Under the pieces are notes generated by a model that worked only from the letters and a program-made list of their open reading frames with translations, was not told the origin of the DNA and made no database searches. Positions 7,367 to 40,070 of a stretch of DNA of 64,000 bases are shown here, one piece after another (the stretch's first letter is position 1; the number at the start of each line of letters is the position of its first letter). The translations under genes and the position numbers were made by a program. This DNA comes from Acidobacteriota bacterium. GTDB taxonomy: Bacteria; Acidobacteriota; UBA890; WLXD01. The stretch is from positions 2,720,001 through 2,784,000 of the forward strand of contig CBDBHB010000009.1 of NCBI GenBank assembly GCA_965205505.1, given 5' to 3'.

Positions 7367-9357
7367 TTGTATCGACAGCCGGGATTGGGAGCGGCCAGTA
7401 GCTCGCTTCTCTTGTTTGCATTAGCGACGTGGGCCATGACATCGGGCCACTCACTCGCCGAGCAGGAGGAGGTCGAGGTACGACATCCGCTCGACCCACT
7501 CACGGAGCGCGAGTACACCACCGTTAGGCTCGGCCTGAGACGCAGTGAGCATGTCGGCCCGATGGCGCGCTATCCGTTGGTCACTCTCCACGAGCCACCG
7601 AAGGCGGACGTCCTGCGATGGCAGTCCGGCGAGACCATCGACCGACCGCAAGGCGTTCGTGATTGTCAAGCAACGCCGGCGCCGTGGTCGACGCAGCCAG
7701 CAGCGAAGTGCTGTCGTGGACTCCGATCGAGGGTGTGCAGCCCGGCGTACTCATGACCGAGGAATGGAGCCTGGCCGTAGCGTTGGTGCTCAGGGATCCC
7801 GAGTGGCAGGCGGCAATCGGCGCACGAGGGATCACGGATCTGCGGCGTGTTGTCTGCACTCCGCTGACGGTGGGCAACTTCGGCCCCCAAGAGCACCCGC
7901 GCCGGCGGCTCGCCAAGGTCATCTGCTTTGACGCCCGCGGCATAGGCAACTACTGGGGACGGCCGATCGAAGGGCTGATTGCGACCGTCGATCTGGTCAA
8001 GCGCACCGTCGAGCTAGTTGACACCGGGACCGTCCCGATGCCGCAATCCCCCGTAGACCTCGCCGGCGAATCCGTGGGCGAGCTCCGGACGCCACCGAAT
8101 CCGGTCGAGGCAACGCAGCCTCTGGGGCCGAGCTTCGAGCTCGATGGGCAGCGTGAGCTGGCAGAAGTGGCGTTTCCACTTCCGCATCGATCCACGCCTG
8201 GGTCCGGTGATCTCCACGGTGCGATACGAGGACGGCGGCAGGCTGCGGTCGATTCTGTACCAGGGCTCGCTATCGGAGCTGTTCGTTCCCTACATGTCGC
8301 CGGACGAGGGTTGGTACTTCAGAACCTACATGGGCGCCGGTGAGTACGGCGTGGGGAAGCTGGCATCGCCCCTCGAGCCAAACCTGGACTGCCCGCCCTG
8401 GGCAACCTTCTTTGATGCGGTGTTCGCCGACGACTGGGGTGATCCTTACACGACGCCACGCGCCGTCTGTCTGTTCGAGCGCAGTGCAGGCGATGTCGCC
8501 TGGCGGCACTACGAATCAGTCACTGGGCGCACGGAGGTCCGCAGGCGCACCGACCTGGTCCTGCGCTTCGTTCCCGCGGTCGGCAACTACGATTACGTGA
8601 TCGACTGGGTGTTCCGGCAGGACGGCACGCTGCAGGTGGACCTGGGCGCCAGCGGGATCGCCCAGGTCAAAGCGGTGGAAAGCCGGACGCTGGCCGAGGA
8701 TGAAGAGGGCCGCGACACCGCTTACGGACGCATGGTGGCGGAGCACACAGTTGCCATAAGCCACGACCACTTCTTCTCGTTCCGGCTCGACCTGGATGTC
8801 GACGGTACGGACAACAGCTTCCTGGTGGACCGCCTGCGGACGGTGAGGCCGCCGGGCGACACTCGGCGCCGAAGCGTCTGGGTGGTCGAGCCGGCGATCG
8901 CCGAATCCGAACATGCCGCAAGGATGCGAATCGACCTCGAGCGGCCGGCCCTGTGGCGGGTCATCAACCCCAACGTCCATGGGCCGCTCGGTTACCCGGT
9001 GAGCTACGAGCTGAAGCCACAGGCGAACGCCGTGTCGCTGATGAAGCCAAACGATCCTCCGCAGCGACGCGCCGGGTTCACCGACTTCCACGTCTGGGTA
9101 ACTCCCTACGAACCGGACGAGCTCTACGCTGCCGGCCGCTACCCGAACCAGAGCCCAGGCGGGAGTGGCCTCCCCGAGTGGACGAGCGCGGATCGGCAGA
9201 TTCGCAATACGGATCTGGTCGTCTGGTACACCATGTGGTCCGCGCCGAGGACTGGGCCGTGCTACCCACGACGCGGGGCGGCTTCGAGTTGCGGCCCTTT
9301 GACTTCTTCCCACGTAACCCGGCTCTCGACATTCCCGAACAGACCAAACAGAACTGA
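7367..9357 (+). pseudogene. Copper-containing primary amine oxidase (TynA-like), at least 4 frame disruptions
   Basis: HPLDPLT, GRPIEG, ELFVPY, VGNYDY (TPQ site), HDH copper ligands and HHVVRAEDW are spread over five reading-frame segments. Confidence 0.9.
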
Positions 9358-9451
9358 CGCGGGCCGCAAAATCGAGGCACGAGCGATGCAGGACGAAAGC
9401 GAGCAGCGAGCAGATCTTGGGGCAAGGAAGCTACAGTGTGCGCCGATCACG

Positions 9452-9619
9452 ATGGCGCTCCTGGTGCTCGTTCTCACGGCCGGCGTGGCCCACTCGCACG
9501 ACATATGGCTTCATGCCGACAGATTTCGGCTCGACGTCGGCGACACGCTGATCGTCCGGCAGCTACTCGGCGAGGAGCTCGACACCGACCTGTCGCGACC
9601 CGAGGCTACGCAGGAGCTG
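9452..9619 (+). pseudogene. DUF4198-family protein, N-terminal fragment
   Basis: Signal peptide followed by AHSHDIWL...FRLDVGDTLIVR, typical of a DUF4198 start; similarity ends at about QEL. Confidence 0.6.
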
Positions 9620-9874
9620 CACAAAGTCAAGAACGTAAGCGAGAGCTCCCTGGCCAGATTCATGGACAGGGGCGCGTGCCGGTTGACCGCATGCGCGTCC
9701 AACGAGGTTGATGGGGACGACGTCATCACGCAGTACGTCTTCTTGCCGGGTGGCTCGTGCGATGCCACCGACGCCAACGACGACGGCTGGTGCGATGCTA
9801 CTGGCGCTCCGAGCGAAGTTCCCGCTGCGCTGAGCGCGGTCGGCATAACGCCCGCGTGCACGCCCTCGCACTGA
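9620..9874 (+). pseudogene. Orphan 3' fragment of an unknown Cys/Asp-rich protein
   Basis: Coding-like frame HKVKNV...CDATDANDDGWCDATG...PSH fused in frame to the DUF4198 N-terminus. Confidence 0.4.
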
Positions 9875-28557: not shown

Positions 28558-28633
28558 GCGGGAATAGCTCAGCTGGTAGAGCGCAACGTTGCCAACGTTG
28601 AGGTCGCGGGTTCGAATCCCGTTTCCCGCTCCA
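28558..28633 (+). tRNA. tRNA-Gly(GCC)
   Basis: GCGGGAA/TTCCCGC acceptor stem, anticodon loop TTGCCAA, GGTTCGAATCC, encoded CCA. Confidence 0.97.
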
Positions 28634-28721: not shown

Positions 28722-28793
28722 GGCGGCGTAGCCAAGTGGTAAGGCAGCGGTCTGCAAAACCGCGATTCGGCGGTTCGATCCCGCCCGCCGCCT
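28722..28793 (+). tRNA. tRNA-Cys(GCA)
   Basis: GGCGGCG/CGCCGCC acceptor stem, CTGCAAA anticodon loop, GGTTCGATCCC, U discriminator; CCA not encoded. Confidence 0.95.
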
Positions 28794-29434: not shown

Positions 29435-30490
29435 TCAGCGGTTGGCTCCGTTTGGCGGAGCCAGGTCCGGGTCGCGCAGGCGGAATCGGTGCAAGAGGCC
29501 CTCGTGGTCGATGACCCAGACCGTACGATCAGGGGCGACAGCCACGATGCGTGCGGAGTAGGGGAGCATCACCGAGCCGCGGTATGCGCCGGAGGTGTCA
29601 TAGCGGTACAACTCGGTGCCGATCGTCCAGGTGCCCTCGGCGGTACGATCGACGTACCCGGCTAGCACCCAATAGAGGCCGCGGGCCTCGTCCCACGAAA
29701 TGTCGGAAGCGGTTCGCGCCACGTGATCAAGGCTCTGGTTGCTAATGTGCCGGGGCAGACTCCCCAGCGGTGCCCAGATGGCGGCCTTGTAAAGGACATC
29801 GATCGTTCCGGTTCTCGACCCGAGTCGATCGTAGATTTGCACCTGGCTGGCGACGTGGGTATGCGCGAGCGCGAAACCACCGCCAGGAGCCGGCGCGAGG
29901 CGGCGAGTGTTGAGCAGAAAGTAGAGGATTCCGACGTCGTGCCGCTGCGGGGGCACGAGGCTATCGAGGAGCTTGCCATCGCGATCCAGCACGCTCACCA
30001 AGGGCTCGGCTTCGGGGCCGAACATGAACGACGTTGTGGGCAGCCGTAGCACGAAGATGTGCTCCGCCGTTCCGACCACCCCGAGCGGGAGGTAGTCGAC
30101 CGGAATCTCGTCGAGCGGCTCGGCTGCGGCACCGAAGCGCGCGAGGCGTCGGTTTCCTGTATCCGCAATCAGGATCTCGCCGTTTGGATACACCCACATC
30201 CCCTCGGGGCGGTTCATCTCGCCGGGCCCGTTACCCTGCCTGCCACGCGACGCGACGAGCTCCCCGGCAGGCGAGAATACCTGCACGCGATGGTTGCCGC
30301 TGTCGAGCACGTAGATTTGGCCCAGGGCGTCGAATCCCAGGGCGGCCGGATTCAAGAAGGCGGTGGCGGCATCAACGGGAGTTTTCCCGAGGGTGCTGAT
30401 CTCCTCGGCCTCCAATGTCCATTCCGCCGGTACGGGAGGCCGCTGGCAGGCGCTGATCAAGCCCAGATTCCACAGGCACAGCCACACCAC
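29435..30490 (-). CDS. NHL/6-bladed beta-propeller lipoprotein
   Basis: ISA-C lipobox-like; IYVLDSGNHRVQVF, GRQGNGPGEMNRPEG and IADTGNRR NHL repeats; start uncertain. Confidence 0.8.
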   Translation of the reverse strand: MVWLCLWNLGLISACQRPPVPAEWTLEAEEISTLGKTPVDAATAFLNPAALGFDALGQIYVLDSGNHRVQVFSPAGELVASRGRQGNGPGEMNRPEGMWVYPNGEILIADTGNRRLARFGAAAEPLDEIPVDYLPLGVVGTAEHIFVLRLPTTSFMFGPEAEPLVSVLDRDGKLLDSLVPPQRHDVGILYFLLNTRRLAPAPGGGFALAHTHVASQVQIYDRLGSRTGTIDVLYKAAIWAPLGSLPRHISNQSLDHVARTASDISWDEARGLYWVLAGYVDRTAEGTWTIGTELYRYDTSGAYRGSVMLPYSARIVAVAPDRTVWVIDHEGLLHRFRLRDPDLAPPNGANR

Positions 30491-30555
30491 GTTGCCCGGG
30501 AAAGCGAAACCTCCCGAGCGGTTCCGCCACGACGACGCAACGCCGCTGCGGTAGC

Positions 30556-30822
30556 CTAGGCCGCGCACCGGCATGCGTCGTGGTTGCCGAGCATGATGTG
30601 GTGGTACGCATCGATGCTGCAGTCGCACGCCATCATGTTGGCGTCGCGGATGAGCCTCCAATCGAGCTCCGTGATGCCGTTCCCCAGATGCTCCTGAACC
30701 CGGTGCATGCATGAGCGGAGCTCCTTGACGCACACTGCGCCGGGTGAGCCGGGTACAGAGGCGCCCCCGATGAGCAGCAAAGCGGTGAGGCACAGCAGCG
30801 GGTTGCGCAGCGAATGAGCCAT
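30556..30822 (-). CDS. Small secreted Cys-rich protein (88 aa)
   Basis: GGGGGA RBS, signal peptide, six Cys in the mature part. Confidence 0.6.
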   Translation of the reverse strand: MAHSLRNPLLCLTALLLIGGASVPGSPGAVCVKELRSCMHRVQEHLGNGITELDWRLIRDANMMACDCSIDAYHHIMLGNHDACRCAA

Positions 30823-31001
30823 TGACGTCCCCCAGGACGGGGACGCGGCGCCACCCCCCGTCGCGCCTTGCGCCCAGTCCTCAACCCGCTTTGACGGACA
30901 CCGCTTGGTAGAATCACGAAACGTTCGGGAAGTCCGTAGATAATCTCCACATCTACGCGGATCCGCTTGTCCAGCTCGCCTCATCAGGCGGAGGTTCAAA
31001 C

Positions 31002-32351
31002 GTGCGCGTTCGCCTTGATTCGATCGGCTGTCGGCTCAATATCGGCGAGATGGAGGAGCTCGCCTTGATCTTGGCCGGGCATGGCCACCGCATCGTAGGC
31101 CCGGGTGACGACGCCGACCTGTTCATCTTCAACACCTGCGCCGTTACTCACGTGGCGGCGCGCAAGTCGCGCAAGATCTTGCGTCAGATACGGCGCGATC
31201 ATCCTCACGCCAGCATCGTGGCGACCGGCTGCTACGCCGACCTGTCGGCAGAAGAGGTCGAGAGGCTCGGCGTCGACATGGTGGTCGGAAATCATCAAAA
31301 GGACCAGCTCGCCGACGAGCTTGCCAACGCCGGTTTGCTACACGACGCCGACCCGATCGGCGACGCTGACGCGGCGCCCTTCCCCGTGCCTCATGGTCGG
31401 ACGCGCGCCTTTGTCAAAGTGCAGGATGGCTGCGACAACCGCTGCACCTTCTGCATCGTCACCGTGGCGCGCGGCAACAGCCGGAGTCGGCCGCTCGAGT
31501 CGGTAGTCGCCCAGGTCCGGCATCTGACAGAGATCGGGTATCGAGAGGCGGTGCTGACCGGGGTGCATTTGGGCTCGTACGGGCACGATCGTGACGATCG
31601 ACACGGCCTCGAGAATCTCGTCGCGGCGATCCTCGAGCGCACCGATATTCCACGTCTGAGGCTGTCGTCGCTCGAACCCTGGGACATGCGCCCCGAGCTC
31701 TTCGACCTCTGGAGCGATAGGCGCCTGCAGCCGCATTTGCATCTGCCACTGCAGAGCGGCTGCGATGCCACGCTGCGGCGCATGTCGCGGCGCACCAGCC
31801 AAGTCGAGTTTGCGTCCTTGGTCGCGGCGGCCAATGCGGTGATTCCGGATCTGGCCGTCAGCACCGATGTGATCGTCGGGTTTCCCGGGGAGACCAAGGA
31901 GGACTTTGAAGAGTCGATCGAGTTCGTCGAATCGATGGCCTTCTCGCGGTTGCACGTATTCCGCTATTCGCCGCGGGCAGGCACCGCGGCAGCGCACATG
32001 CCCGATCAGGTTGATCCGGCCACCGCGCAAGGCCGCAGTCGGCGGTTGCACGCGCTCGGTGCCGATCTGGAAACGAGCTTCCGGCGCGGCATGCTGGGCA
32101 GCAAGGTCCAGGTTCTGTGGGAGTCAAGCGAGCCGTTCGGCGACGGCAACCGCTGGAGCGGCTTGACCGGCAACTACGTGCGCGTGCTCACCGATACGGG
32201 GCCAGACGTCGATCTCCGTAACCGATCGATGGCCACCGAGCTGGTGGAGTCGCTGCCGGGTGCTCTCTATGGGCAGTGCGCGGCGACGCGCGGGCGTCTG
32301 TACGAGGACGGCTCCGGCGTCCACCACAGGCCACTAACGTGCCGTGACTGA
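31002..32351 (+). CDS. mtaB: tRNA t6A37 methylthiotransferase (MtaB-type radical SAM)
   Basis: GCRLN, NTCAVT, KVQDGCDNRCTFC and LHVFRYSPRAGT. Confidence 0.88.
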   Translation: MRVRLDSIGCRLNIGEMEELALILAGHGHRIVGPGDDADLFIFNTCAVTHVAARKSRKILRQIRRDHPHASIVATGCYADLSAEEVERLGVDMVVGNHQKDQLADELANAGLLHDADPIGDADAAPFPVPHGRTRAFVKVQDGCDNRCTFCIVTVARGNSRSRPLESVVAQVRHLTEIGYREAVLTGVHLGSYGHDRDDRHGLENLVAAILERTDIPRLRLSSLEPWDMRPELFDLWSDRRLQPHLHLPLQSGCDATLRRMSRRTSQVEFASLVAAANAVIPDLAVSTDVIVGFPGETKEDFEESIEFVESMAFSRLHVFRYSPRAGTAAAHMPDQVDPATAQGRSRRLHALGADLETSFRRGMLGSKVQVLWESSEPFGDGNRWSGLTGNYVRVLTDTGPDVDLRNRSMATELVESLPGALYGQCAATRGRLYEDGSGVHHRPLTCRD

Positions 32352-32361
32352 CGAGGAAGCC

Positions 32362-34014
32362 ATGAACATGCGCGTTGCGACCCTTACCCTGATGCTCACC
32401 CTAGCCGGCGGCGCCTGTGCCCCCGCCGACGGTCCGGCGGAACTCGTGGACGCACCCACGAGCGCCGCGGAGCTCGGCCTCGCCAAGTACATCGAGGTCA
32501 GCCTCGAGCCGGACCTGTCAGGTCTGAGCGATAACCAGCGAGCCATCTTGAGCCTGCTGATCGACGCGGCGCTGGCGGTGGACGAGATCTTCTGGATACA
32601 GGCGTATGGGGACCGCGCCGAGCTGCTCGAATCACTCGACGCCCCTGCGGAGCGACGCTTTGCGGAGGCTAACTTCGGTCCCTGGGATCGGCTGGACGCC
32701 AACACGGCGTTCGTAACCGGCATGGGCGCGAAGCCTGCAGGCGCCAACCTCTACCCTCCCGACATCACGCGCGAGGAGATCGAGGCGGCGGGCAACTCGG
32801 AGCTTCGAGCCCTGTACACCTTGGTGCGACGCGACGACGCCGGCGGGCTGATCGCCAAGCCATACCACGAGGTCTTTTCCGATCAAGTGGGACGCGCCGC
32901 CGCCAAGCTACGTGAAGCGGCGACGCTGGCCGACGACCCGGGGTTGCAGAACTACCTGGAGCTTCGCGCCACAGCTTTGTTGAACGACGATTATCGAGCT
33001 AGCGACCTGGCTTGGATGGACATGACCGACAACACAATCGAGGTCGTCATCGGTCCGATAGAGGTGTACGAAGACCAGTTCCTTGGCGCCAAAGCGGCGT
33101 TCGAGGCATTGATCTTCATCAAGGACCAGGAGTGGAGCGCTCGCCTAGCTCGCTACGCCAGCCTGCTACCGTCGTTACAACGCACCTTACCTGTGGCCGA
33201 TGCCTACAAGGCGGAAGAACCCGGCAGCGACGCCCAGCTCAACGCCTACGATCTGGTCTATGCGGGCGGAGACGCCAACGCCGGCGCCAAATCGATCGCC
33301 GTGAACCTGCCCAACGACGAGGTCGTCCAACTGCAGAAGGGCACGCGCCGGATTCAGATCAAGAACGGCATGCGCGCCAAGTTCGACGCTATCCTCGTTC
33401 CGATCGCGGCGGAGCTGATCTCGCCCGACCAGCGTGGGCACGTGACGTTTGACGCCTTCTTCGCCAACACGATGTTTCACGAGGTGGCGCATGGACTCGG
33501 CATCAAGAACACCATCGACGGTGGCGGCACCGTGAGGCAGGCGCTGGCCGAGCACGCGTCGTGGGTGGAGGAAGGGAAGGCGGATATTCTCGGTCTGCAT
33601 ATGCTCACCGAGCTAAACGCCAGCGGCGAGCTCGGCAACGCCGATCTGATGGACAATTACGTGACGTTCTTCGCCTCGATCTTTCGTTCGATCCGCTTCG
33701 GGCTCACGAGTGCGCACGGGCGCGCCAATTTGGCGCGTTTCAATTACTTCCGCGACCAGCAGGCGTTCGTGTTCGACGAGGCCACCGGTACCTATTCGAT
33801 CGACCTCGACCGTGTTCAGGCGGCGATCGCCGGGCTGTCGGAGAAGCTGCTGCGCCTGCAGGGTGATGGGGACTATGACGGCACGGCGGCATACTGGTCG
33901 GTAGCCGGGGTGATAGGGCCTGGCCTGCAGGCGGCCCTCGATCGGCTTGGCGAGCGTTCCATCCCGGTCGATATCATCTACCGCCAAGGGCCGGAGGTAT
34001 TGGGGCTCGATTAG
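32362..34014 (+). CDS. Zn peptidase, dipeptidyl-peptidase III (M49)-like lipoprotein
   Basis: Lipobox AGGA-C; NLPNDE, FHEVAHGLG and EEGKAD. Confidence 0.8.
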   Translation: MNMRVATLTLMLTLAGGACAPADGPAELVDAPTSAAELGLAKYIEVSLEPDLSGLSDNQRAILSLLIDAALAVDEIFWIQAYGDRAELLESLDAPAERRFAEANFGPWDRLDANTAFVTGMGAKPAGANLYPPDITREEIEAAGNSELRALYTLVRRDDAGGLIAKPYHEVFSDQVGRAAAKLREAATLADDPGLQNYLELRATALLNDDYRASDLAWMDMTDNTIEVVIGPIEVYEDQFLGAKAAFEALIFIKDQEWSARLARYASLLPSLQRTLPVADAYKAEEPGSDAQLNAYDLVYAGGDANAGAKSIAVNLPNDEVVQLQKGTRRIQIKNGMRAKFDAILVPIAAELISPDQRGHVTFDAFFANTMFHEVAHGLGIKNTIDGGGTVRQALAEHASWVEEGKADILGLHMLTELNASGELGNADLMDNYVTFFASIFRSIRFGLTSAHGRANLARFNYFRDQQAFVFDEATGTYSIDLDRVQAAIAGLSEKLLRLQGDGDYDGTAAYWSVAGVIGPGLQAALDRLGERSIPVDIIYRQGPEVLGLD

Positions 34015-34050
34015 CGATAATCTGCCAAGGGATGGCAAGCCTATTGCACG

Positions 34051-34860
34051 ATGCTGAGAGATATGTGGAAAGCGCGTGACCTTCTGGGGGGTACTGAGCC
34101 CCGTGGCACAGATCCGATCGTGGACCGTGACCCGAACTCACCGATCGTTCGGCTACGTGGACTCGAGAAGTGGTACAAGTCGGGGTTCGGCCGCACGTAC
34201 GTGCTGCGCCGTATCAACGCAGACATCCGTCAGGGCGAGTTCGTCACCATCATGGGCCCGTCCGGGGCTGGTAAGTCGACTTTGTTGAGCATCGTCGGAA
34301 TGCTCGACGGGTCATGGGAAGGGGAGTACTACTTCCTGGACTATCCGGTTCATGACCTGAGCTCGAAAGAGCGAAATCGCCTTAATCGCGAATACATCGG
34401 CTTCGTCTTCCAGAGCTACCACCTGATCGACAGCATGACCGTCTACGAGAACCTCGACGTGCCGCTGTCGTATCGGAACGTCAAGCGTGCACAGCGCAAG
34501 AGCATGGTGGCGGACACCCTCGATCGCTTCAATATCGTCGGCAAGAAGGACCTCTATCCGAGCCAGCTATCGGGCGGTCAGCAGCAGCTGGTGGGCGTTG
34601 CTCGCGCCATCATCGGCAATCCCAAGGTACTTCTTGCCGACGAGCCGACCGGCAACCTGCACACCGCGCAGGGCAGAGAGATCATGGAGCTGTTCAAGCG
34701 CCTGTGTGAGGAGGAGGGAACGACCATCGTGCAGGTCACCCACTCCGAGATGAGCGCTGCATACAGCGACCGGATCATCAACTTGCTGGACGGCTGGGTC
34801 GTTGAAGACGATCCGTACAAAGCCGAGCACGCCGAGCCTGCCGAACCTGCCGAGTCGTAG
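34051..34860 (+). CDS. MacB/LolD-type ABC ATP-binding protein
   Basis: GPSGAGKST, IGFVFQSYHL, LSGGQQQ and LADEPTGNL. Confidence 0.93.
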   Translation: MLRDMWKARDLLGGTEPRGTDPIVDRDPNSPIVRLRGLEKWYKSGFGRTYVLRRINADIRQGEFVTIMGPSGAGKSTLLSIVGMLDGSWEGEYYFLDYPVHDLSSKERNRLNREYIGFVFQSYHLIDSMTVYENLDVPLSYRNVKRAQRKSMVADTLDRFNIVGKKDLYPSQLSGGQQQLVGVARAIIGNPKVLLADEPTGNLHTAQGREIMELFKRLCEEEGTTIVQVTHSEMSAAYSDRIINLLDGWVVEDDPYKAEHAEPAEPAES

Positions 34861-34965
34861 GGCCGTCCGGTTCTGGAACGACGGTTTCCCAGAATCGGCA
34901 CAGCATTGGCGCTACGGCGCGGCGCACCGCGAAGCCAGCCGGGTGCGGCAGATGGGGCGGCCACT

Positions 34966-34982
34966 TTGGCACGCCGCTTGCT
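34966..34982 (+). promoter_or_regulatory. Sigma-54 (-24/-12) promoter
   Basis: TTGGCACGCCGCTTGCT fits the YTGGCACG-N4-TTGCW consensus with exact GG-N10-GC spacing; predicted +1 is about 34993. Confidence 0.8.
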
Positions 34983-34992
34983 TCTTACTTCG

Positions 34993-35205
34993 GGCAAGAG
35001 CTCAGGTGACAGCGAGGACGCCAGCCCTGTTCCGATCATGGACGTAAAGGGGAGCGGCCTGGGGCTGAGGCTGGCGTGCCCGGTGTCACCCGAGCGAGTG
35101 AATACCCGGCGGTATCGAGGACGTCAGCCCTGTCCCGATATGGACGTAAAGGGGAGCGGCCTGGGGGCGATGGCTGGCGTGCCCGATACCGCCGGGTGTT
35201 TCTTT
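34993..35205 (+). ncRNA. Candidate sigma-54-dependent tandem-hairpin sRNA
   Basis: Two units of about 100 nt with different but paired outer stems, a shared inner stem ACGYCAGCC/GGCTGGCGT and an identical 27-nt core; ends in GTTTCTTT. Confidence 0.65.
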
Positions 35206-35365
35206 GCTCGGCGGAGGTCGACCGAGTACGGATTCACGAATCGGCGGTTCGATTTCCTGGATTATAGCCGACGAGAACTGTCAGTTCCGAATGGATCTGG
35301 TGGGCTGGCGTGCCAAAATGTCGCCGCCGGCCGCCCGACATGGCCAGACCCAGGAGGATTCGCTC

Positions 35366-35650
35366 GTGTGTCGAAACATCCGTCCGTTGTTCAATTTCAA
35401 GCCTGTGGCTACCGACGCCGAGGTTCGAGCCTCGGCGTTGCAATACGTACGTAAGATCAGCGGCATGCGGGCTCCGTCGCGCACCAACCACGCGGCGTTC
35501 GAGCAGGCCGTAGACGATGTTGCCGTCGTCTCGCAGCGGCTGCTGGCCAGCCTCGTTACGACGGTGGCCCCGAAGTCGCGTGAAGAAGAGCGCGCCAAGG
35601 CCCGTATGCGATGGGAGCGGCGCGCCGCACGCCTGCAAGCGAGCGGCTGA
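35366..35650 (+). CDS. DUF2277-family protein
   Basis: MCRNIRPLFNF...ALQYVRKISG; AGGAGG RBS before GTG 35366. Confidence 0.85.
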   Translation: MCRNIRPLFNFKPVATDAEVRASALQYVRKISGMRAPSRTNHAAFEQAVDDVAVVSQRLLASLVTTVAPKSREEERAKARMRWERRAARLQASG

Positions 35651-35712
35651 TGGCCTGGCTGATCGCCGATCGTAGTCGGTCGCGCGCTGCCTGACGATGC
35701 GAGCCTGAGGGC

Positions 35713-36435
35713 ATGGCCGAGCTATCGTATTGCGTGTTCTGTGGCTCTCGGCACGGTGTTCGCCCCGCCTACGCCGCCGCCGCCGCTGCACTTGGCAAGG
35801 CGCTCGTCGGGCGCCGGCTCGGACTGGTATACGGCGGCGGTAACGTCGGTCTGATGGGCGTGATTGCCGACTCCGTGCTGGCGGCGGGAGGCCGGGTCAC
35901 CGGGGTCATCCCCCACGGGTTGGAGGTACGCGAGGTTGGCCACCCGTCTTTGAGCGAGCTTCTCGTGGTGGACTCGATGCACGAGCGCAAGCATCTGATG
36001 TCGGAGCTGTCGTCCGGGTTCGTCGCGTTGCCCGGCGGCATCGGCACCTTCGAGGAGTTGTTCGAGATCAGCGCCTGGGCGCAACTCGGGATGCACCGCA
36101 AGCCCGTAGCTCTCTTGAACGTCGCTGGCTACTACGACCGGCTCTTGGCGATGCTCGACCACGCGGTCGGCGAGGGCTTCGTCGAGTCTGAGCGGCGAGA
36201 GCAACTGATCGTCGACGACGAACCGGACCGACTACTGGACCGCATGGCCGGGTACGATGCTCCCAACGTGCCGCGATGGCTGGGCAGCAAGAAGACTGAG
36301 CTCGGTCGGCACAGGGGCGAACTTGATCCATGCGACGCTGTTGGCGACACTGCTGATATCTCCCCGCTCCAGAAGGGCCCTGCCCGCAAGCGCGATGCGT
36401 CGTCGCAGACGGGTCTGCCACGAGGTGAAGCGTGA
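35713..36435 (+). CDS. LOG-family nucleotide phosphoribohydrolase (TIGR00730-like)
   Basis: CVFCGS, YGGGNVGLMG, MHERK and PGGIGTFEE. The last 45 or so residues may be read-through past a lost stop near 36298. Confidence 0.9.
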   Translation: MAELSYCVFCGSRHGVRPAYAAAAAALGKALVGRRLGLVYGGGNVGLMGVIADSVLAAGGRVTGVIPHGLEVREVGHPSLSELLVVDSMHERKHLMSELSSGFVALPGGIGTFEELFEISAWAQLGMHRKPVALLNVAGYYDRLLAMLDHAVGEGFVESERREQLIVDDEPDRLLDRMAGYDAPNVPRWLGSKKTELGRHRGELDPCDAVGDTADISPLQKGPARKRDASSQTGLPRGEA

Positions 36436-38912
36436 AGAAGCTCCTCCGAGGTCTCTCGGTCCTGATCTTGCTCGTCTTGTTCGCCACACCTGCTCATGCG
36501 CAGGTCGGCTTTGGCCGGGTTGTTGCCATTGGCGACGACGAGGTGTTTGTCGGCGAGGCCGGCAATCGGGCGAGCTCTGGGTACGTTTATGTATATCGCC
36601 GAGACGGTAGCGACTGGACCGAGGTGGCAGCCCTCGCGGCCTCGGACGCCACTGACGGCGACGGCTTTGGCAGCGCGATCTCCGTTGGTGGGGAGCTGCT
36701 GCTGGTCAGCGCGGTCACCGAGGAGAACGGCGCTGTATACATGTTCCATCGCGACGGGCGCTCGTGGAACGAAGTCGGTACGCTGATGCGTTCGGGCGGG
36801 CTCGACAGCGACCGGTTTGGCGCCTCCATGTCGCGCGACGGAACGCAGCTGCTGGTCGGTGCTCCCGCCGCCGCCGATGGTTGGGGATCGGCTGTCGTGT
36901 TCGAGATGCAGGACTATCAATGGGTTCAGGTGGCGCGGCTGTCGGGAATGCGTCCGGAGGTCGAGCACGGAGCAGAGGAGGACCGCGACCGGGCGCATGG
37001 CGAGGCCGCCGGCGAACGTGCCGATAGGGGGGAGGATGGCGAGGGCGACGATGAGGCCGAGCCCCCGACACCCGAGCGCTTCGGTTCCGCCGTATTGATC
37101 AGCGATGAGTGGGCGGTGGTGGGCGCTCCCAATGCCAACAAGCGCGCCGGGCTCGCGTACGTGTTCCGCAACGGCGACGACGGCTGGAAGCAGGTGACGA
37201 CGCTAGGGGATTTCTCGGAGGAGAACGATCGCTTCGGCTCATCGTTGGCGATCAAGGGCTCCGAGCTGCTCGTGGGTGCTGTTGGTGCGGGTCAACTCGG
37301 TGCTGTGCGGCGCTTCCAATACGACGCCGAGAACGGCGAGCTCACGCGCGCGGCGAGCATGTTCCCGTTCGAAGGAACGGCGTTCGGCTTCGGCGCTGCG
37401 ATCGCCGTCCAGGGCGATGATGTGTACGTGGCGGCACCGCGGGCCAACAATGGCTCTGGCGTTATATTCCGCTACACCGACGACGGTGCCGGTAACTGGT
37501 CGGAAGTCTCCAAGATCGGTACCGGTGCGTTCGGCCCGCGATCCCGGTTCGCCGCCTCGATGGCAGTCGATGGAGACATCATCGTCGCCGGCATTCCCAA
37601 CGTCGACTTCGGTGCTGGCCAAGCGATGATCCTGACCCGCACCTACGGTGGCTGGGATCGCACTACGGTGCTCTCGGAGATCAAGGCGCTCGAGCGCATT
37701 ACCGGCGCCGCGGTGCCATGCGATGCTGGGCAGGTAGGCCATTTCGAGTGTGCCGGCGTCGACTTGCTTGCCTTCCTGCCAACGCACGAGATCGGTGGCG
37801 GGCGTGGCGTCGTCACCAACGATGTCTGGGGATGGACGGATCCCGACACGGGCCGCGACATCGCCATCGTCGGCCTCAGCACTGCCGCCTCGTTTGTCGA
37901 CGTCACGGATCCATACAACCCGGTGTACTTGGGCAGGCTACCGAGGACGGACGGGTCCAACACCAGCGTCTGGCGCGACATCAAGGTTTACGCCGACCAC
38001 GCGTTCATCGTTTCCGACAACGCCGGTGAGCATGGCATGCAGGTCTTCGACTTGAAGCGGTTGCGCGAGTTCGAAGGCGATCCGATTACCTTCATCGAGG
38101 ACGTGCTCTACACCGACATGAACTCGGCGCACAACATCGTCATCAATGAAGAGACCGCCTTCGCGTTCATCGTCGGTGCCAGTGGCGGCGGCGAGACGTG
38201 CGGCGGCGGGCTGCACATGGTGAACATCGAAGACCCGAAGCAGCCAGTCTTCGCAGGCTGCTTCCAGGACGTACGCACCGGACAGCGCGGTACCGGCTAC
38301 TCCCACGACGCGCAGTGCGTGACTTACCACGGTCCCGACGAGCGCTATGTGGGCCGAGAGATCTGCTTCGGCTCAAACGAAACAGCGTTGTCGATCGCCG
38401 ATGTCAGTGACAAGCGCGACCCGCAGGCCATCGGCATGTCGAGTTATCCGAACGTTGCCTACAGCCACCAGGGCTGGCTGACCGACGATCACCGCTACTT
38501 CTACATGAACGACGAAGGCGACGAGATGACGGGCCTCGTGGAGGGCACGCGGACGATCGTCTGGGATGTGCAGGATCTGGAGGACCCGATCGTGGCCTCC
38601 GAATACGTCTCGGACAATCCCGCAATCGACCACAACCTCTACGTGGTCGGCAACGTGATGTATCAGTCGAACTACGATTCCGGGCTGCGAGTGTTCGATG
38701 TCTCCGAACCGGAAGCGATCAAGGAGATTGGTTACATAGATACGGTGCCATTTGGTGATGACGGCCAGGGAATGGGTGGCTCATGGAGTAACTACCCGTA
38801 CTTCGGCAACGGTATCGTCGTGATCACCTCGATGAGCGAAGGCTTCTTCGTCGCCAAGGTGCGCGACGATGCCCTGCCTGCCGGGGCCTCGAGCGGATCG
38901 GAGAGGGAGTGA
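36432..38912 (+). CDS. Secreted FG-GAP repeat plus choice-of-anchor B (LVIVD-like propeller) protein, paralog 1
   Basis: Signal peptide; FG-x-S/A...VGAP repeats; NDVWGWTDP, WRDIKVY, SAHNI, YSHDAQC, YSHQGW, DHNLY and WSNYPYF. Confidence 0.85.
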   Translation: MKKLLRGLSVLILLVLFATPAHAQVGFGRVVAIGDDEVFVGEAGNRASSGYVYVYRRDGSDWTEVAALAASDATDGDGFGSAISVGGELLLVSAVTEENGAVYMFHRDGRSWNEVGTLMRSGGLDSDRFGASMSRDGTQLLVGAPAAADGWGSAVVFEMQDYQWVQVARLSGMRPEVEHGAEEDRDRAHGEAAGERADRGEDGEGDDEAEPPTPERFGSAVLISDEWAVVGAPNANKRAGLAYVFRNGDDGWKQVTTLGDFSEENDRFGSSLAIKGSELLVGAVGAGQLGAVRRFQYDAENGELTRAASMFPFEGTAFGFGAAIAVQGDDVYVAAPRANNGSGVIFRYTDDGAGNWSEVSKIGTGAFGPRSRFAASMAVDGDIIVAGIPNVDFGAGQAMILTRTYGGWDRTTVLSEIKALERITGAAVPCDAGQVGHFECAGVDLLAFLPTHEIGGGRGVVTNDVWGWTDPDTGRDIAIVGLSTAASFVDVTDPYNPVYLGRLPRTDGSNTSVWRDIKVYADHAFIVSDNAGEHGMQVFDLKRLREFEGDPITFIEDVLYTDMNSAHNIVINEETAFAFIVGASGGGETCGGGLHMVNIEDPKQPVFAGCFQDVRTGQRGTGYSHDAQCVTYHGPDERYVGREICFGSNETALSIADVSDKRDPQAIGMSSYPNVAYSHQGWLTDDHRYFYMNDEGDEMTGLVEGTRTIVWDVQDLEDPIVASEYVSDNPAIDHNLYVVGNVMYQSNYDSGLRVFDVSEPEAIKEIGYIDTVPFGDDGQGMGGSWSNYPYFGNGIVVITSMSEGFFVAKVRDDALPAGASSGSERE

Positions 38913-39985
38913 AGCCGATGGCCCGGAGAATCGTCGGGTCGCTGATCGCGGTGACCTTGATCGTCGTCGTGTTGGCATGGTCGTCGAGCGCGTTGGCGGC
39001 ACCGTCAGGGCGGGTCTACGTGGCCAGTCAAGATGGCGCGGCGATCTCGGTGATCGACATCGAGACACAGCAGCTGATCGCCACGATCGACCTCACGTCG
39101 CTCGGCTTCAACCCCACCTCCAAGCCGCATCACGTGGCCGTCGAGCCCGACGGGTCGCACTGGTACGTTTCGCTCATCGCCGATTGGCGCGTGCTCAAGT
39201 TCGATCGCGACAACAACCTCGTAGGTCAGGCCGAGTTCGAAACACCGGGGTTGCTCTCGCTCGATCCGACCGGCGAGCTGCTCTACGTAGGCCGGTCGAT
39301 GGCGGCGGTGAGCCCGCCAACGCGCATCGGGGTGATCGATCGCGACAGCATGGCGATCGACGAGATCGACGTGTTCTTTGCCCGGCCACACGCGCTAATA
39401 GCGAACCCGAACGGCGAGGTGGTGTACACGGCGAGCCTGGCCGAGAACCGTATCGCGACTGTGGAGCCGGGCGAGGACGGACTGGAGCTTCTCGACGTTC
39501 CGGGTGGGACGCATACCTTCGTTCAGTTCGCCATCTCCCCCGCCGGCGACACGATGGTCACCGGTGGCCAGATCTCTGGTGAGATCCTGGTGTTCGACAT
39601 TAGTGATTCGCGTAATCCGGTCCTGCAGAAGCGCTTTGCGCTAGGTGGCCAGCCTTGGCACCCGGTCTACTCGGCCGACGGCTCGGTGGTGTATTTCCCG
39701 CAACGCACGGCAAATACCGTAGCGGTGATCGACACGAGCAGCTGGGAGTTGGTGGATCAGATCAGCGGCGGGGGGCTCTACGAGCCACATGGTAGCGCCA
39801 TCTCAGGCGACGGCCGCTGGCTATTCGTATCCGGCCGCAACACCGCAGGTGAGTACGGTGATGTCGTCGAGGACGCCAAGCCTCCCGGAACGCTCAATAT
39901 CATCGATACGGAATCCCGGCAGGTCGTGAAGGTGCTCGAGGTGCCAGCGTATGCTGCTGGCGTCGGTGCATCTGGCAGTCGCTGA
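38909..39985 (+). CDS. Secreted YncE/YVTN-type beta-propeller
   Basis: Signal peptide; RVYVAS...ISVID, NTVAVID and P-H motifs in successive blades. Confidence 0.85.
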   Translation: MKPMARRIVGSLIAVTLIVVVLAWSSSALAAPSGRVYVASQDGAAISVIDIETQQLIATIDLTSLGFNPTSKPHHVAVEPDGSHWYVSLIADWRVLKFDRDNNLVGQAEFETPGLLSLDPTGELLYVGRSMAAVSPPTRIGVIDRDSMAIDEIDVFFARPHALIANPNGEVVYTASLAENRIATVEPGEDGLELLDVPGGTHTFVQFAISPAGDTMVTGGQISGEILVFDISDSRNPVLQKRFALGGQPWHPVYSADGSVVYFPQRTANTVAVIDTSSWELVDQISGGGLYEPHGSAISGDGRWLFVSGRNTAGEYGDVVEDAKPPGTLNIIDTESRQVVKVLEVPAYAAGVGASGSR

Positions 39986-40070
39986 TCGACTCGGCGCCCT
40001 GGGAGCGCGCACCGGGCTGCCCGGGCAGGCATGGCAGAATTCGTCGTCTTCAAACAACCGAGGTACGTCC

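What the first reader, a model, noticed from the sequence alone, without database searches (positions are those of the whole stretch)
34966..35205. Sigma-54 promoter driving a tandem two-unit structured RNA with an invariant 27-nt loop core
Seen: consensus -24/-12 promoter with +1 near 34993. Unit 1 (35000-35095) is closed by GCTCAGGTGACA/TGTCACCCGAGC. Unit 2 (35101-35200) is closed by the unrelated AATACCCGGCGGTATCG/CGATACCGCCGGGTGTT and followed by TCTTT, which is terminator-like. Both units share the stem ACGYCAGCC/GGCTGGCGT and the exact sequence ATGGACGTAAAGGGGAGCGGCCTGGGG in the loop region. Divergent stems around an invariant core are typical of a functional RNA rather than a recent duplication. 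Inference: an undescribed sigma-54-dependent sRNA, possibly processed into two units. It could act by base pairing with a C-rich target or as a protein sponge (three GGA motifs per unit). Sigma-54 sRNAs such as Qrr, NrsZ and Pxr are analogies only.
Basis: partly seen in the sequence, partly recalled or inferred. Interest (0 to 1): 0.8.

Follow-up and report, generated by a model that had tools for sequence, protein, structure and literature searches.

The report
Sigma-54 tandem hairpin RNA, Acidobacteriota
A small, previously undescribed structured RNA made of two ~100-nt hairpins sits behind a sigma-54 promoter in an acidobacterial genome, and related hairpins also sit just upstream of an unknown small-protein gene in related genomes, so it is probably a new regulatory RNA family whose partner is still unknown.

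Summary
There is a perfect sigma-54 -24/-12 box (34967-34982). Two ~100-nt hairpins follow (35000-35095, 35101-35200) and share an exact 27-mer. The second is closed by a stem plus T-run.

One scan of 185,579 species genomes with the 18-nt core gave 21 loci, 19 of them in 15 Acidobacteriota MAGs.
- Four loci (class A) are syntenic with the window. All keep the sigma-54 box, with one or two units.
- Fifteen (class B) carry a single homologous hairpin behind an ECF-type promoter. It sits upstream of a conserved ~110-aa protein of no known family.

The long stem covaries: 16 of 34 pairs show compensatory changes, and G.U cells outnumber A.C cells 99 to 14, which points to sense-strand RNA. The apical stem-loop stays fixed while flanking proteins are only 55-92% identical.

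There is no Rfam match, no plausible coding frame, no plasmid match, and no paper found.

Best reading, inferred: a terminated ~213-nt sigma-54 sRNA displaying two copies of a protein-recognition stem-loop, acting as a decoy. A cis-acting leader or attenuator role is nearly as likely. Base pairing found no support.

It is a new RNA family of a known kind.

The parts
34861..34900 (+). Partly conserved block directly after the ABC ATPase stop codon, 68-107 nt upstream of the -24 box. Candidate activator (enhancer) site or weak terminator of the upstream operon.
   Evidence: Alignment of the 5 class A promoter regions gives 11 invariant columns in this block. Function not tested.
34967..34982 (+). 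Sigma-54 type promoter, -24 TGGCAC and -12 TTGCT. Predicted start near 34993.
   Evidence: Only perfect consensus match in the window. TTGGCACG-N4-TTGCT is invariant in 5 of 5 syntenic loci, always 70-72 nt upstream of the first core.
34993..35207 (+). Predicted primary transcript (~213 nt): two hairpin units ending at an intrinsic terminator.
   Evidence: Inferred from promoter geometry and the terminator. No expression data.
35000..35095 (+). Hairpin unit 1 (P1, P2, P3, apical stem-loop). No T-run follows it.
   Evidence: MFE fold. Consensus structure with covariation. CM R1 gives 95.6 bits on the sense strand and 35.0 on the antisense.
35038..35064 (+). Invariant core of unit 1: apical stem-loop GGACGU-AAAGGGGA-GCGGCC plus the 3' strand of P3.
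   Evidence: Exact 27-nt repeat. The 18-mer inside it recurs in 19 acidobacterial loci.
35096..35100 (+). Spacer between the units. Together with the A-rich start of unit 2 it can pair with the T-run region downstream.
   Evidence: MFE structure and inverted repeat I1.
35101..35200 (+). Hairpin unit 2. Its 17-bp closing stem doubles as the terminator stem.
   Evidence: CM R1 gives 95.9 bits on the sense strand and 41.5 on the antisense.
35140..35166 (+). Invariant core of unit 2.
35201..35210 (+). T-rich tail (TCTTTGCTCG; T-run of the terminator).
   Evidence: A T-rich tail follows the last unit in 4 of 5 class A loci (window, L006, L018, L008; weak in L021).

Best explanation
**What it is (well supported).** A chromosomal gene for a ~213-nt non-coding RNA of a new family found so far only in Acidobacteriota. 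A sigma-54 promoter drives two paralogous ~100-nt extended hairpins. Each hairpin has a variable but always paired lower stem (P1 of 14 pairs, P2 of 9 pairs) and a sequence-invariant apical module. That module is P3 plus a 20-nt stem-loop with the purine-rich loop AAAGGGGA. The closing stem of the second hairpin, together with a T-run, ends the transcript.

**How it most likely works (inferred).** The apical module is a recognition site for a protein. The same module sits on a hairpin that starts just downstream of an ECF-type promoter, upstream of a conserved ~110-aa protein gene (class B loci). The sigma-54 RNA carries one or two extra copies of that site on a stable, terminated RNA. When the sigma-54 activator fires, the RNA would titrate the binding protein away from its other hairpin-bearing transcripts. 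That is decoy or mimic logic, as with GlmY versus GlmZ or CsrB versus CsrA targets.

**Partner.** It is unidentified. The class B protein itself is the first candidate, because the hairpin and that gene are always adjacent.
For: **Shown**
- Promoter, units and terminator are present.
- There are 22 homologous units from the window plus 15 MAG genomes.
- 16 of 34 pairs carry compensatory changes, 15 of them in the 23 pairs of P1 and P2. 95.6% of cells pair, against 87.5% in shuffles (0 of 500 reach it) and 38-46% when partners are slid.
- 99 G.U cells against 14 A.C cells. CM scores are 80-107 bits sense and 26-50 antisense. The sense strand is therefore RNA.
- The sigma-54 box is invariant in 5 of 5 syntenic loci, while flanking proteins are 55-92% identical.
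- Unit 1 and unit 2 are old paralogs, yet their cores are identical in the window and L021 and 17 of 18 in L006.
- A T-rich tail follows the last unit in 4 of 5 class A loci and is absent after unit 1.

**Pointing to a protein site rather than a pairing seed**
- The conserved part is a structured module of about 45 nt that includes paired bases. The truly unpaired internal loops vary in sequence and length.
- No complement of the core occurs in the window.
- Loop-to-leader and P3-to-leader duplexes are no better than shuffles.

**Pointing to stand-alone RNA use**
- In B2 loci the protein gene has its own sigma-54-like promoter downstream of the hairpin (5 of 6), and the hairpin has a T-richer tail.
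- Class A loci were found in 3 of 6 B2 genomes and 0 of 8 B1 genomes.

**Hairpin-protein link**
- 14 of 15 class B loci show the gene downstream. The 15th is cut by a contig end.
Against: - There is no expression data, so the transcript, its ends and its rpoN dependence are predictions.
- No protein partner is identified.
- The class B protein has no recognisable RNA-binding domain: no Pfam, NCBIfam or PDB sequence match, best Foldseek PDB E-value 0.77, and only unnamed clusters in the Atlas.
- Invariance of the 18-mer is partly built in, because the only genome scan required it exactly.
- In 5 of 5 class A loci the RNA points at the same downstream operon, which fits a cis-acting leader equally well.
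- Two binding sites is few for a sponge.
Confidence: 0.4

Rival explanations
1. **Cis-acting leader or attenuator.** The sigma-54 promoter is the promoter of the downstream operon (DUF2277-LOG-choice-of-anchor B/FG-GAP). The hairpins are its leader. A factor bound to the apical module, which is transcribed before the terminator stem closes, decides whether RNA polymerase stops at the T-run or reads through. This is protein-dependent attenuation, comparable in logic to lambda N/nut (recalled, not tested). In class B loci the same element would autoregulate the small protein gene.
For: - In 5 of 5 class A loci the RNA is followed on the same strand by the same FG-GAP/choice-of-anchor B gene, directly or through DUF2277-LOG.
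- In 14 of 15 class B loci it is followed by the small protein gene.
- No sigma-70-like promoter is found between the terminator and DUF2277 (0 sites in 34600-35800).
- T-runs are interrupted or weak in L018 and L021.
- B1 hairpins have no T-run and sit in the predicted leader upstream of the ORF.
Against: - A 45-nt block conserved in the window, L006 and L018 between terminator and DUF2277 could be a separate promoter or operator.
- No alternative (antiterminator) pairing was found.
- In B2 loci a sigma-54-like promoter lies after the hairpin, so the gene can be expressed without it.
- The long covarying P1/P2 stems are kept even where no terminator follows.
Confidence: 0.3
2. **Base-pairing sRNA of the NrsZ type.** The identical apical loops (AAAGGGGAG, Shine-Dalgarno-like) kiss a C-rich sequence in a target leader. 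They would open a self-inhibitory structure, or block a C-rich RNA. The RNA may be cut into single-hairpin modules.
For: - The architecture parallels NrsZ: an RpoN promoter, similar stem-loop modules with identical loops, and processing. This rests on passages of PMC4253122.
- B1 leaders carry a conserved CCCCTGG...GGGGG element just before the start codon in 7 of 7 loci. That element could pair with 5 nt of the loop.
Against: - Predicted loop-leader duplexes are no better than shuffled leaders. The fraction of shuffles at least as good is 0.02-0.89 over 13 loci.
- The same holds for the P3 strand, 0.06-0.88.
- B2 leaders, from the genomes that also hold class A, lack the CCCCTGG element.
- No complement of the core exists in the 64-kb window.
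- Conservation of paired bases is not explained by a seed.
- The CCCCTGG/GGGGG pairing shows no covariation, 0 of 5 pairs.
Confidence: 0.15
3. **CsrA/RsmA-type sponge** (a specific case of the protein-decoy idea). GGA motifs in the loop and internal loops sequester a CsrA homologue.
For: - There are three GGA per unit in class A.
- One GGA lies in the apical loop and one 11 nt upstream of it.
Against: - The first GGA (CGAGGACG) is absent from 13 of 14 class B units.
- Six sites in all is well below the many sites I recall in CsrB/RsmZ-type sponges.
- No Rfam CsrB/RsmY/RsmZ-type hit appears at E up to 10.
- Presence of csrA in these genomes could not be checked.
Confidence: 0.08
4. **Not an RNA gene.** It could be a small ORF (MDVKGSGLG...), a DNA palindrome bound by a protein, or a mobile repeat.
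For: - The 27-mer begins with ATG, and the two ATGs are in frame (102 nt apart) inside a 182-codon ORF.
- Unit spacing is a multiple of 3 in all three tandem loci: 99, 102 and 105 nt.
Against: - The ATG is missing in 4 of 22 units (L008, both L021 units, L007).
- In L006 the frame has a stop between the units.
- The compensatory changes and the 99:14 excess of G.U over A.C cells are RNA signatures.
- At most two loci per genome were found, each in a fixed syntenic place.
- No plasmid match.
Confidence: 0.03

Closest known systems
NrsZ of Pseudomonas aeruginosa (RpoN/NtrC-dependent sRNA; passages of PMC4253122 read)
   Same: Sigma-54 promoter. One transcript of about 220 nt made of similar stem-loop modules that expose an identical loop sequence. 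It lies in an intergenic region and ends at a terminator.
   Different: No sequence or structure homology (no Rfam hit). The units here are ~100-nt extended hairpins, not ~40-nt stem-loops. There are two rather than three units and no spacer hairpins. The kissing-loop target pairing shown for NrsZ found no support here. Processing is untested.
GlmY/GlmZ-RapZ of Enterobacteriaceae (search listing and abstract openings of PMC7073468, PMC4152352 and PMC6075780)
   Same: Homologous RNAs deployed from different promoters, at least one of them sigma-54 dependent. One acts as a decoy that mimics the other for a binding protein. This is the logic proposed here for the sigma-54 RNA versus the hairpin of the class B loci.
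   Different: No homology. Here the second copy is a hairpin upstream of a protein gene (a predicted leader), not a base-pairing sRNA. The binding protein is unknown, and decoy action is inferred, not shown.
CsrB/RsmZ and CrcZ-type protein-sponge sRNAs (recalled, no call)
   Same: Repeated copies of a short protein-binding motif on a dedicated regulated RNA. As I recall, CrcZ is also sigma-54 dependent.
   Different: Only 1-2 large structured sites rather than many short GGA or A-rich motifs. No Rfam match. Only two of three GGA motifs are conserved.
Protein-dependent leader elements such as lambda nut/N or RAT/BglG attenuators (recalled, no call)
   Same: A conserved hairpin close to the promoter, upstream of a terminator and of the regulated genes. 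A copy lies just upstream of the putative regulator's own gene.
   Different: The hairpin is far longer than boxB or RAT. No alternative antiterminator fold was seen. The class B protein shows no similarity to known antiterminators.
Acido-1 (RF01686) and Acido-Lenti-1 (RF01687), the RNA motifs listed for Acidobacteria in Table 1 of PMC2864571 (passages)
   Same: Non-coding structured RNA candidates from the same phylum.
   Different: Neither model matches the window region or L009 at E up to 10. No Rfam family reaches its gathering score in 14 related loci.

Membership tests
Sigma-54 (RpoN) dependent promoter | GG at -24 and GC at -12 with the fixed spacing TGGCAC-N5-TTGCW (consensus recalled) | tested here: met
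   Perfect match at 34967-34982, unique in the window. Invariant in 5 of 5 syntenic loci. Fixed distance of 70-72 nt to the first core.
Sigma-54 (RpoN) dependent promoter | Upstream activator (bEBP) binding sites about 80-150 bp upstream | tested here: inconclusive
   A partly conserved block lies at 34861-34900. No clear palindrome of 10 nt or more was found there. No bEBP gene was found among the window ORFs scanned or the locus ORFs scanned.
Sigma-54 (RpoN) dependent promoter | Transcription requires rpoN and an activator ATPase | not testable with these tools
   No expression data. rpoN is not in the window.
Intrinsic terminator | G+C-rich stem directly followed by a T-run | tested here: met
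   The scan hit ends at 35199 with tail TTCTTTGCTC. A T-rich tail follows the last unit in 4 of 5 class A loci.
Structured non-coding RNA (general criterion) | Base pairs kept through compensatory changes, and strand-specific G.U pairs | tested here: met
   16 of 34 pairs show double changes. Covariation score is 0.346 against 0.199 in shuffles (0 of 500 reach it) and 0.07-0.10 when partners are slid. 99 G.U cells against 14 A.C cells. The apical P4/P5 pairs never vary, so they are uninformative, partly by ascertainment.
Any Rfam 15 family (including NrsZ, Qrr, Pxr, CsrB/Rsm, Y RNA, Acido-1, riboswitches) | Score at or above the family's gathering threshold | tested here: not met
   Only two tRNAs in the window. 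In 34800-35400 the best hit is a plant miRNA precursor at 24.7 bits against a threshold of 142. 0 hits in 14 related loci.
NrsZ-like modular base-pairing sRNA | Identical loop sequence complementary to a target leader | tested here: inconclusive
   Tested only against the leaders of the linked class B genes and within the window. No better than shuffles and no complement found. Whole genomes were not available.
NrsZ-like modular base-pairing sRNA | Processing into single stem-loop modules | not testable with these tools
   Needs RNA-seq or Northern blots.
Riboswitch or cis-regulator of DUF2277 | Constant association with the regulated gene family | tested here: not met
   DUF2277 follows the RNA in 3 of 5 class A loci (window, L006, L018). 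It is absent in L008 and L021, and in all class B loci examined.
CsrA/RsmA sponge | Many GGA motifs in loops or single-stranded stretches, conserved across homologues | tested here: not met
   Three per unit in class A, but the first is missing in 13 of 14 class B units. That leaves two conserved per unit.
Mobile or REP-like repeat | Many dispersed copies without fixed genomic context | tested here: not met
   2 copies in the window. 1-2 loci per genome in 15 genomes, each in one of two syntenic contexts. No plasmid match.

The most novel reading that the evidence does not exclude
The hairpin and the adjacent ~110-aa protein form a previously unknown RNA-protein regulatory module of Acidobacteriota. 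The protein belongs to an uncharacterised helical family in which all 18 aligned members end in Ala-Ala. In this reading the protein binds the invariant apical stem-loop. It controls its own gene through the hairpin that lies upstream of it. The sigma-54 tandem RNA is then either its decoy or a nut-like loading site that gates read-through into the downstream operon. That would wire an ECF-sigma input and a sigma-54 input together through one RNA fold.
Probability: 0.2. Interest if true: 0.75.

Novelty: new member of a known kind. Interest (0 to 1): 0.6.

Why it matters
My searches found no published regulatory RNA of this kind in Acidobacteriota. The only Acidobacteria RNA motifs I located were Acido-1 and Acido-Lenti-1. 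This locus gives a well-defined family with a clear promoter, a covarying structure, an old tandem duplication and a built-in terminator. It also has a sister element tied to an unknown small-protein gene under a different sigma factor.

That yields a concrete and testable link between sigma-54 signalling, ECF-sigma signalling and post-transcriptional control in an uncultured lineage. It also yields a covariance model that can be used to annotate other genomes.

It is not a new kind of system. Sigma-54-dependent modular sRNAs and decoy RNAs are already known.

Tried and rejected
- **Rfam.** Searched at gathering score and at E up to 10 on the window region, on L009, and on 14 loci. Nothing real. 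A 22-bit antisense CcsR1 hit in L009 is far below its 65-bit threshold.
- **Further copies in the window.** The CM found none, with default filters on the whole window and filters off on 30000-40000. The best other hit scores 19 bits at E 0.09.
- **Third, decayed unit in the DUF2277 leader.** A 12-mer repeat lies at 35303-35314. The local alignment is matched by 9-11 of 500 shuffles and the CM sees nothing there. Dropped.
- **Complement of the core in the window.** None found.
- **Loop-to-leader and P3-to-leader pairing in class B mRNAs.** Not better than shuffles.
- **Coding potential.** Rejected.
- **Plasmid collection, blastn.** No match.
- **Class B protein.**
  - No match in Pfam, NCBIfam or PDB by sequence.
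  - AF2 model at pLDDT 73.8, then Foldseek against PDB with best E 0.77.
  - The ESM Atlas returned only unnamed clusters.
  - A profile search gave 102 representatives. Of the 67 I scanned, 0 have a Pfam domain over the homologous part, 2 carry an extra HTH and 1 a PilZ. Of 22 scanned against PHROGs, 4 weakly match phrog_7024, of unknown function.
- **Literature.** Searches for DUF2277, for Acidobacteria with small RNA and sigma-54, for Acidobacteriota structured RNA, and for Acidobacteria RNA motifs found no description of this element.

**Not checked.**
- Only one genome scan was allowed, and it needed the exact 18-mer. Diverged family members and the true variability of the core are therefore unknown.
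- Paper supplements were closed. The additional files of PMC2864571 with motif details were not seen.

Full report
**The observation**

The window reads TGGCACGCCGCTTGCT at 34967-34982. This is the only zero-mismatch match to the sigma-54 consensus TGGCAC-N5-TTGCW in 64 kb. With one mismatch allowed there are 3 matches against 1.61 expected.

Two extended hairpins follow. Unit 1 (35000-35095) and unit 2 (35101-35200) have unrelated closing stems. They share nearly identical inner parts, including an exact 27-mer at 35038-35064 and 35140-35166.

The 218-nt stretch folds into two independent hairpins at -130.1 kcal/mol, z = -7.8, with 0 of 200 shuffles as good. The closing stem of unit 2 is followed by a T-rich tail and is picked up by the terminator scan. 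The only change is that the '27-nt loop core' is an apical stem-loop plus one strand of a helix, not a loop.

**Surroundings**

The region is an ordinary chromosome stretch at about 64% G+C. The genes around the RNA, all on the + strand, are:

| Position | Gene |
|---|---|
| 31002-32351 | MtaB-like methylthiotransferase |
| 32344-34014 | M49-like peptidase |
| 34051-34860 | lone ABC ATPase |
| 35366-35650 | DUF2277 gene |
| 35713-36435 | LOG-family gene |
| 36432-38912 | FG-GAP / choice-of-anchor B protein |

No sigma-54 activator or rpoN gene was found among the window ORFs scanned.

**Relatives**

It returned 21 loci. Two of them (a Streptomyces and a Treponema) have no hairpin and are chance matches. 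The other 19 come from 15 Acidobacteriota MAGs, and they fall into two contexts.

*Class A* comprises L006, L018, L008 and L021.
- These loci are syntenic with the window: MtaB-like, M49-like, ABC ATPase, RNA, then the FG-GAP protein.
- DUF2277-LOG lies in between in the window, L006 and L018 but not in L008 or L021.
- All five loci keep TTGGCACG-N4-TTGCT, although the intergenic alignment is only 55% identical overall.
- The box always lies 70-72 nt upstream of the first core.
- The window, L006 and L021 have two units. L018 and L008 have one.

*Class B* comprises 15 loci in 14 genomes. L001 and L010 may be one locus split over two contigs.
- Each has a single homologous hairpin.
- The hairpin starts a few bases downstream of a conserved element. 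12 of 13 loci with upstream sequence read AAACT, about 17 nt, then GCGTC. L019 deviates.
- I read this element as an ECF-sigma type promoter. That rests on the recalled 'AAC ... CGT' rule, not on a test.
- Downstream lies a conserved ORF of about 109-114 aa in 14 of 15 loci. The 15th is cut by the contig end.

**Structure**

I aligned 22 units (8 class A, 14 class B). RNAalifold gives one long hairpin of 34 pairs:
- P1, 14 pairs.
- P2, 9 pairs.
- An internal loop.
- P3, 6 pairs.
- An asymmetric internal loop.
- A 20-nt apical stem-loop, GG-A-CGU / AAAGGGGA / GCG-G-CC.

Sixteen pairs carry compensatory double changes, 15 of them in P1 and P2. 95.6% of cells pair, against 87.5% in column shuffles (0 of 500 reach the observed value) and 38-46% when partners are slid by 1-3 columns.

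G.U cells number 99 against 14 A.C cells (from the pair table). A covariance model scores the sense strand at 80-107 bits and the antisense at 26-50. The functional molecule is therefore RNA of the + strand.

The apical pairs never vary. That says nothing for or against them, and it is partly an artefact of searching with the exact 18-mer. The one unit found only by adjacency (L006 unit 2) still keeps 17 of 18 core positions.

As calibration, proteins flanking class A loci are 55-92% identical between genomes.

**History of the tandem**

Two features distinguish unit 1 from unit 2. One is C versus T in the 5' strand of P2. The other is the different P1 stems. Both are shared by the window, L006 and L021. 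The duplication therefore predates these genomes, and the identical cores reflect constraint rather than recency.

The single-unit loci are chimeras. Their 5' P1 strand resembles unit 1 (L018 against window unit 1, 0.94). Their 3' P1 strand resembles unit 2 (L018 against window unit 2, 0.88). L008 shows the same pattern. The resulting stems have extra mismatches. This is what recombination across the identical cores would leave.

**What it is not**

- *A known RNA family.* No Rfam 15 family matches. This includes the two Acidobacteria motifs listed in Table 1 of PMC2864571 (passages).
- *Coding.* The ATG is absent in 4 of 22 units, and L006 has a stop between its units in that frame.
- *A dispersed repeat.* There are two copies in the window, one or two fixed loci per genome, and no plasmid match.
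- *A DUF2277 riboswitch.* DUF2277 is absent from 2 of 5 class A loci, and the hairpin serves other genes.
- *Described in print, as far as I could find.* Four literature searches found no description.

**Class B details that bear on mechanism**

*The protein.*
- It is helical (AF2 mean pLDDT 73.8).
- All 18 aligned members end in Ala-Ala.
- It has no Pfam, NCBIfam, PDB-sequence or significant Foldseek match.
- It belongs to a wider unnamed family: 102 representatives at E up to 0.001. None of the 67 I scanned has a Pfam domain over the homologous part.

*Sub-type B1.*
- It comprises nine loci in eight genomes: L001/L010, L003, L004, L009, L012, L013, L014 and L017.
- The hairpin lies in the predicted leader upstream of the ORF.
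- In 7 of the 7 loci aligned (L004 and the contig-cut L010 were left out), a conserved CCCCTGG...GGGGG element sits just before the start codon. No covariation supports that pairing.

*Sub-type B2.*
- It comprises L002, L005, L007, L015, L016 and L019.
- A sigma-54-like box, GGCAY-N5-TTGCA, lies between the hairpin and the ORF in 5 of 6 loci. L015 is degenerate.
- The hairpin has a T-richer tail.

*Co-occurrence.* Class A loci were found in 3 of 6 B2 genomes and in 0 of 8 B1 genomes. MAG incompleteness and the exact-core requirement limit this count.

**Mechanism**

*Shown:* a conserved sigma-54 box, a conserved RNA fold, a terminator-like end, an invariant structured apical module, and reuse of that module next to a specific small-protein gene.

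*Inferred:* the module is a recognition site for a partner. I favour a protein, for three reasons.
- The conserved part is a folded 45-nt unit that includes paired bases.
- The truly single-stranded internal loops vary in sequence and length.
- No complementary target turned up. The window holds none. Predicted duplexes between the loop or the P3 strand and the class B leaders are no better than shuffled leaders.

Given a protein partner, there are two possible uses.
1. *A terminated ~213-nt RNA that titrates the protein (decoy).* This is supported by the terminator, by the B2 arrangement in which the hairpin is separable from the gene, and by the co-occurrence of class A with B2. I rate it 0.4.
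2. *A cis-acting leader that gates read-through into the downstream operon.* This is supported by the constant downstream orientation (5 of 5 and 14 of 15 loci), by the absence of a sigma-70-like promoter before DUF2277, and by the weak T-runs in L018 and L021. I rate it 0.3.

An NrsZ-like kissing-loop mechanism stays possible at 0.15, because only 64 kb and the linked leaders could be searched. The comparison rests on passages of PMC4253122. That the locus is a real, conserved, sigma-54-linked structured RNA I rate at about 0.9.

**Comparison and novelty**

It works like known sigma-54-dependent modular sRNAs such as NrsZ. In the favoured reading it also works like decoy RNAs such as GlmY (search listing and abstract openings). 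It is a member of none of these families, because every homology test failed.

It is therefore a new family of a known kind. It is noteworthy for its clean comparative support, its dual deployment under two alternative sigma factors, and its link to an uncharacterised protein family in a poorly studied phylum.

Noticed in passing
window 35228-35270: A ~45-nt block between the RNA terminator and the DUF2277 start is conserved in the window, L006 and L018. It contains a near-palindrome, CGAATC-N3-GATTCG in L006. It may be the promoter or operator of the DUF2277-LOG-FG-GAP operon, or part of its leader.
   Followed up: partly
window 35303-35314: A third exact copy of GGCTGGCGTGCC, the 3' strand of helix P2, lies in the DUF2277 leader. 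It is complementary to the 5' strand of P2. It is not significant on its own: 9-11 of 500 shuffles match it. The CM sees no third unit.
   Followed up: yes
L002, L005, L007, L016, L019 (74-105 nt downstream of the core start): A sigma-54-like box, GGCAY-N5-TTGCA, lies between the class B hairpin and the small-protein ORF in 5 of 6 B2 loci. That gene is therefore probably sigma-54 dependent itself.
   Followed up: partly
L009 566-892 and relatives (alignment A4): This is a conserved ~110-aa helical protein family with no Pfam, NCBIfam or PDB match. All 18 aligned members end in Ala-Ala, a possible C-terminal degradation tag. Distant relatives weakly match phrog_7024, of unknown function. A few are fused to an HTH or PilZ domain.
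   Followed up: partly
L018 4152-4253 and L008 3184-3285: The single-unit versions of the sigma-54 RNA are chimeras of the unit 1 5' strand and the unit 2 3' strand, with uncompensated mismatches in P1. This indicates unit loss by recombination across the identical cores.
   Followed up: yes
window 34861-34900: A partly conserved block right after the ABC ATPase stop codon lies 68-107 nt upstream of the -24 box. It contains two GGNAC(A/G)-like repeats about 21 nt apart. It could be an enhancer site or a weak terminator.
   Followed up: partly
window 7663-8340 and 8144-9871: The copper amine oxidase N3 domain and the catalytic domain lie in two overlapping ORFs in different frames. This may be one gene with a frameshift or a sequencing error.
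   Followed up: no
window 28558-28630 and 28722-28793: Two tRNA genes lie on the + strand. They are the only Rfam gathering-level hits in the window.
   Followed up: no
L015 2770-3830 and L019 3880-4356 (plus the ORF just upstream): A zf-HC2 anti-sigma gene lies 2-3 kb from the class B locus in these two related genomes, and L015 also shows the adjoining ECF sigma factor gene (Pfam-confirmed only there). No such gene was seen among the ORFs scanned in the other loci.
   Followed up: no
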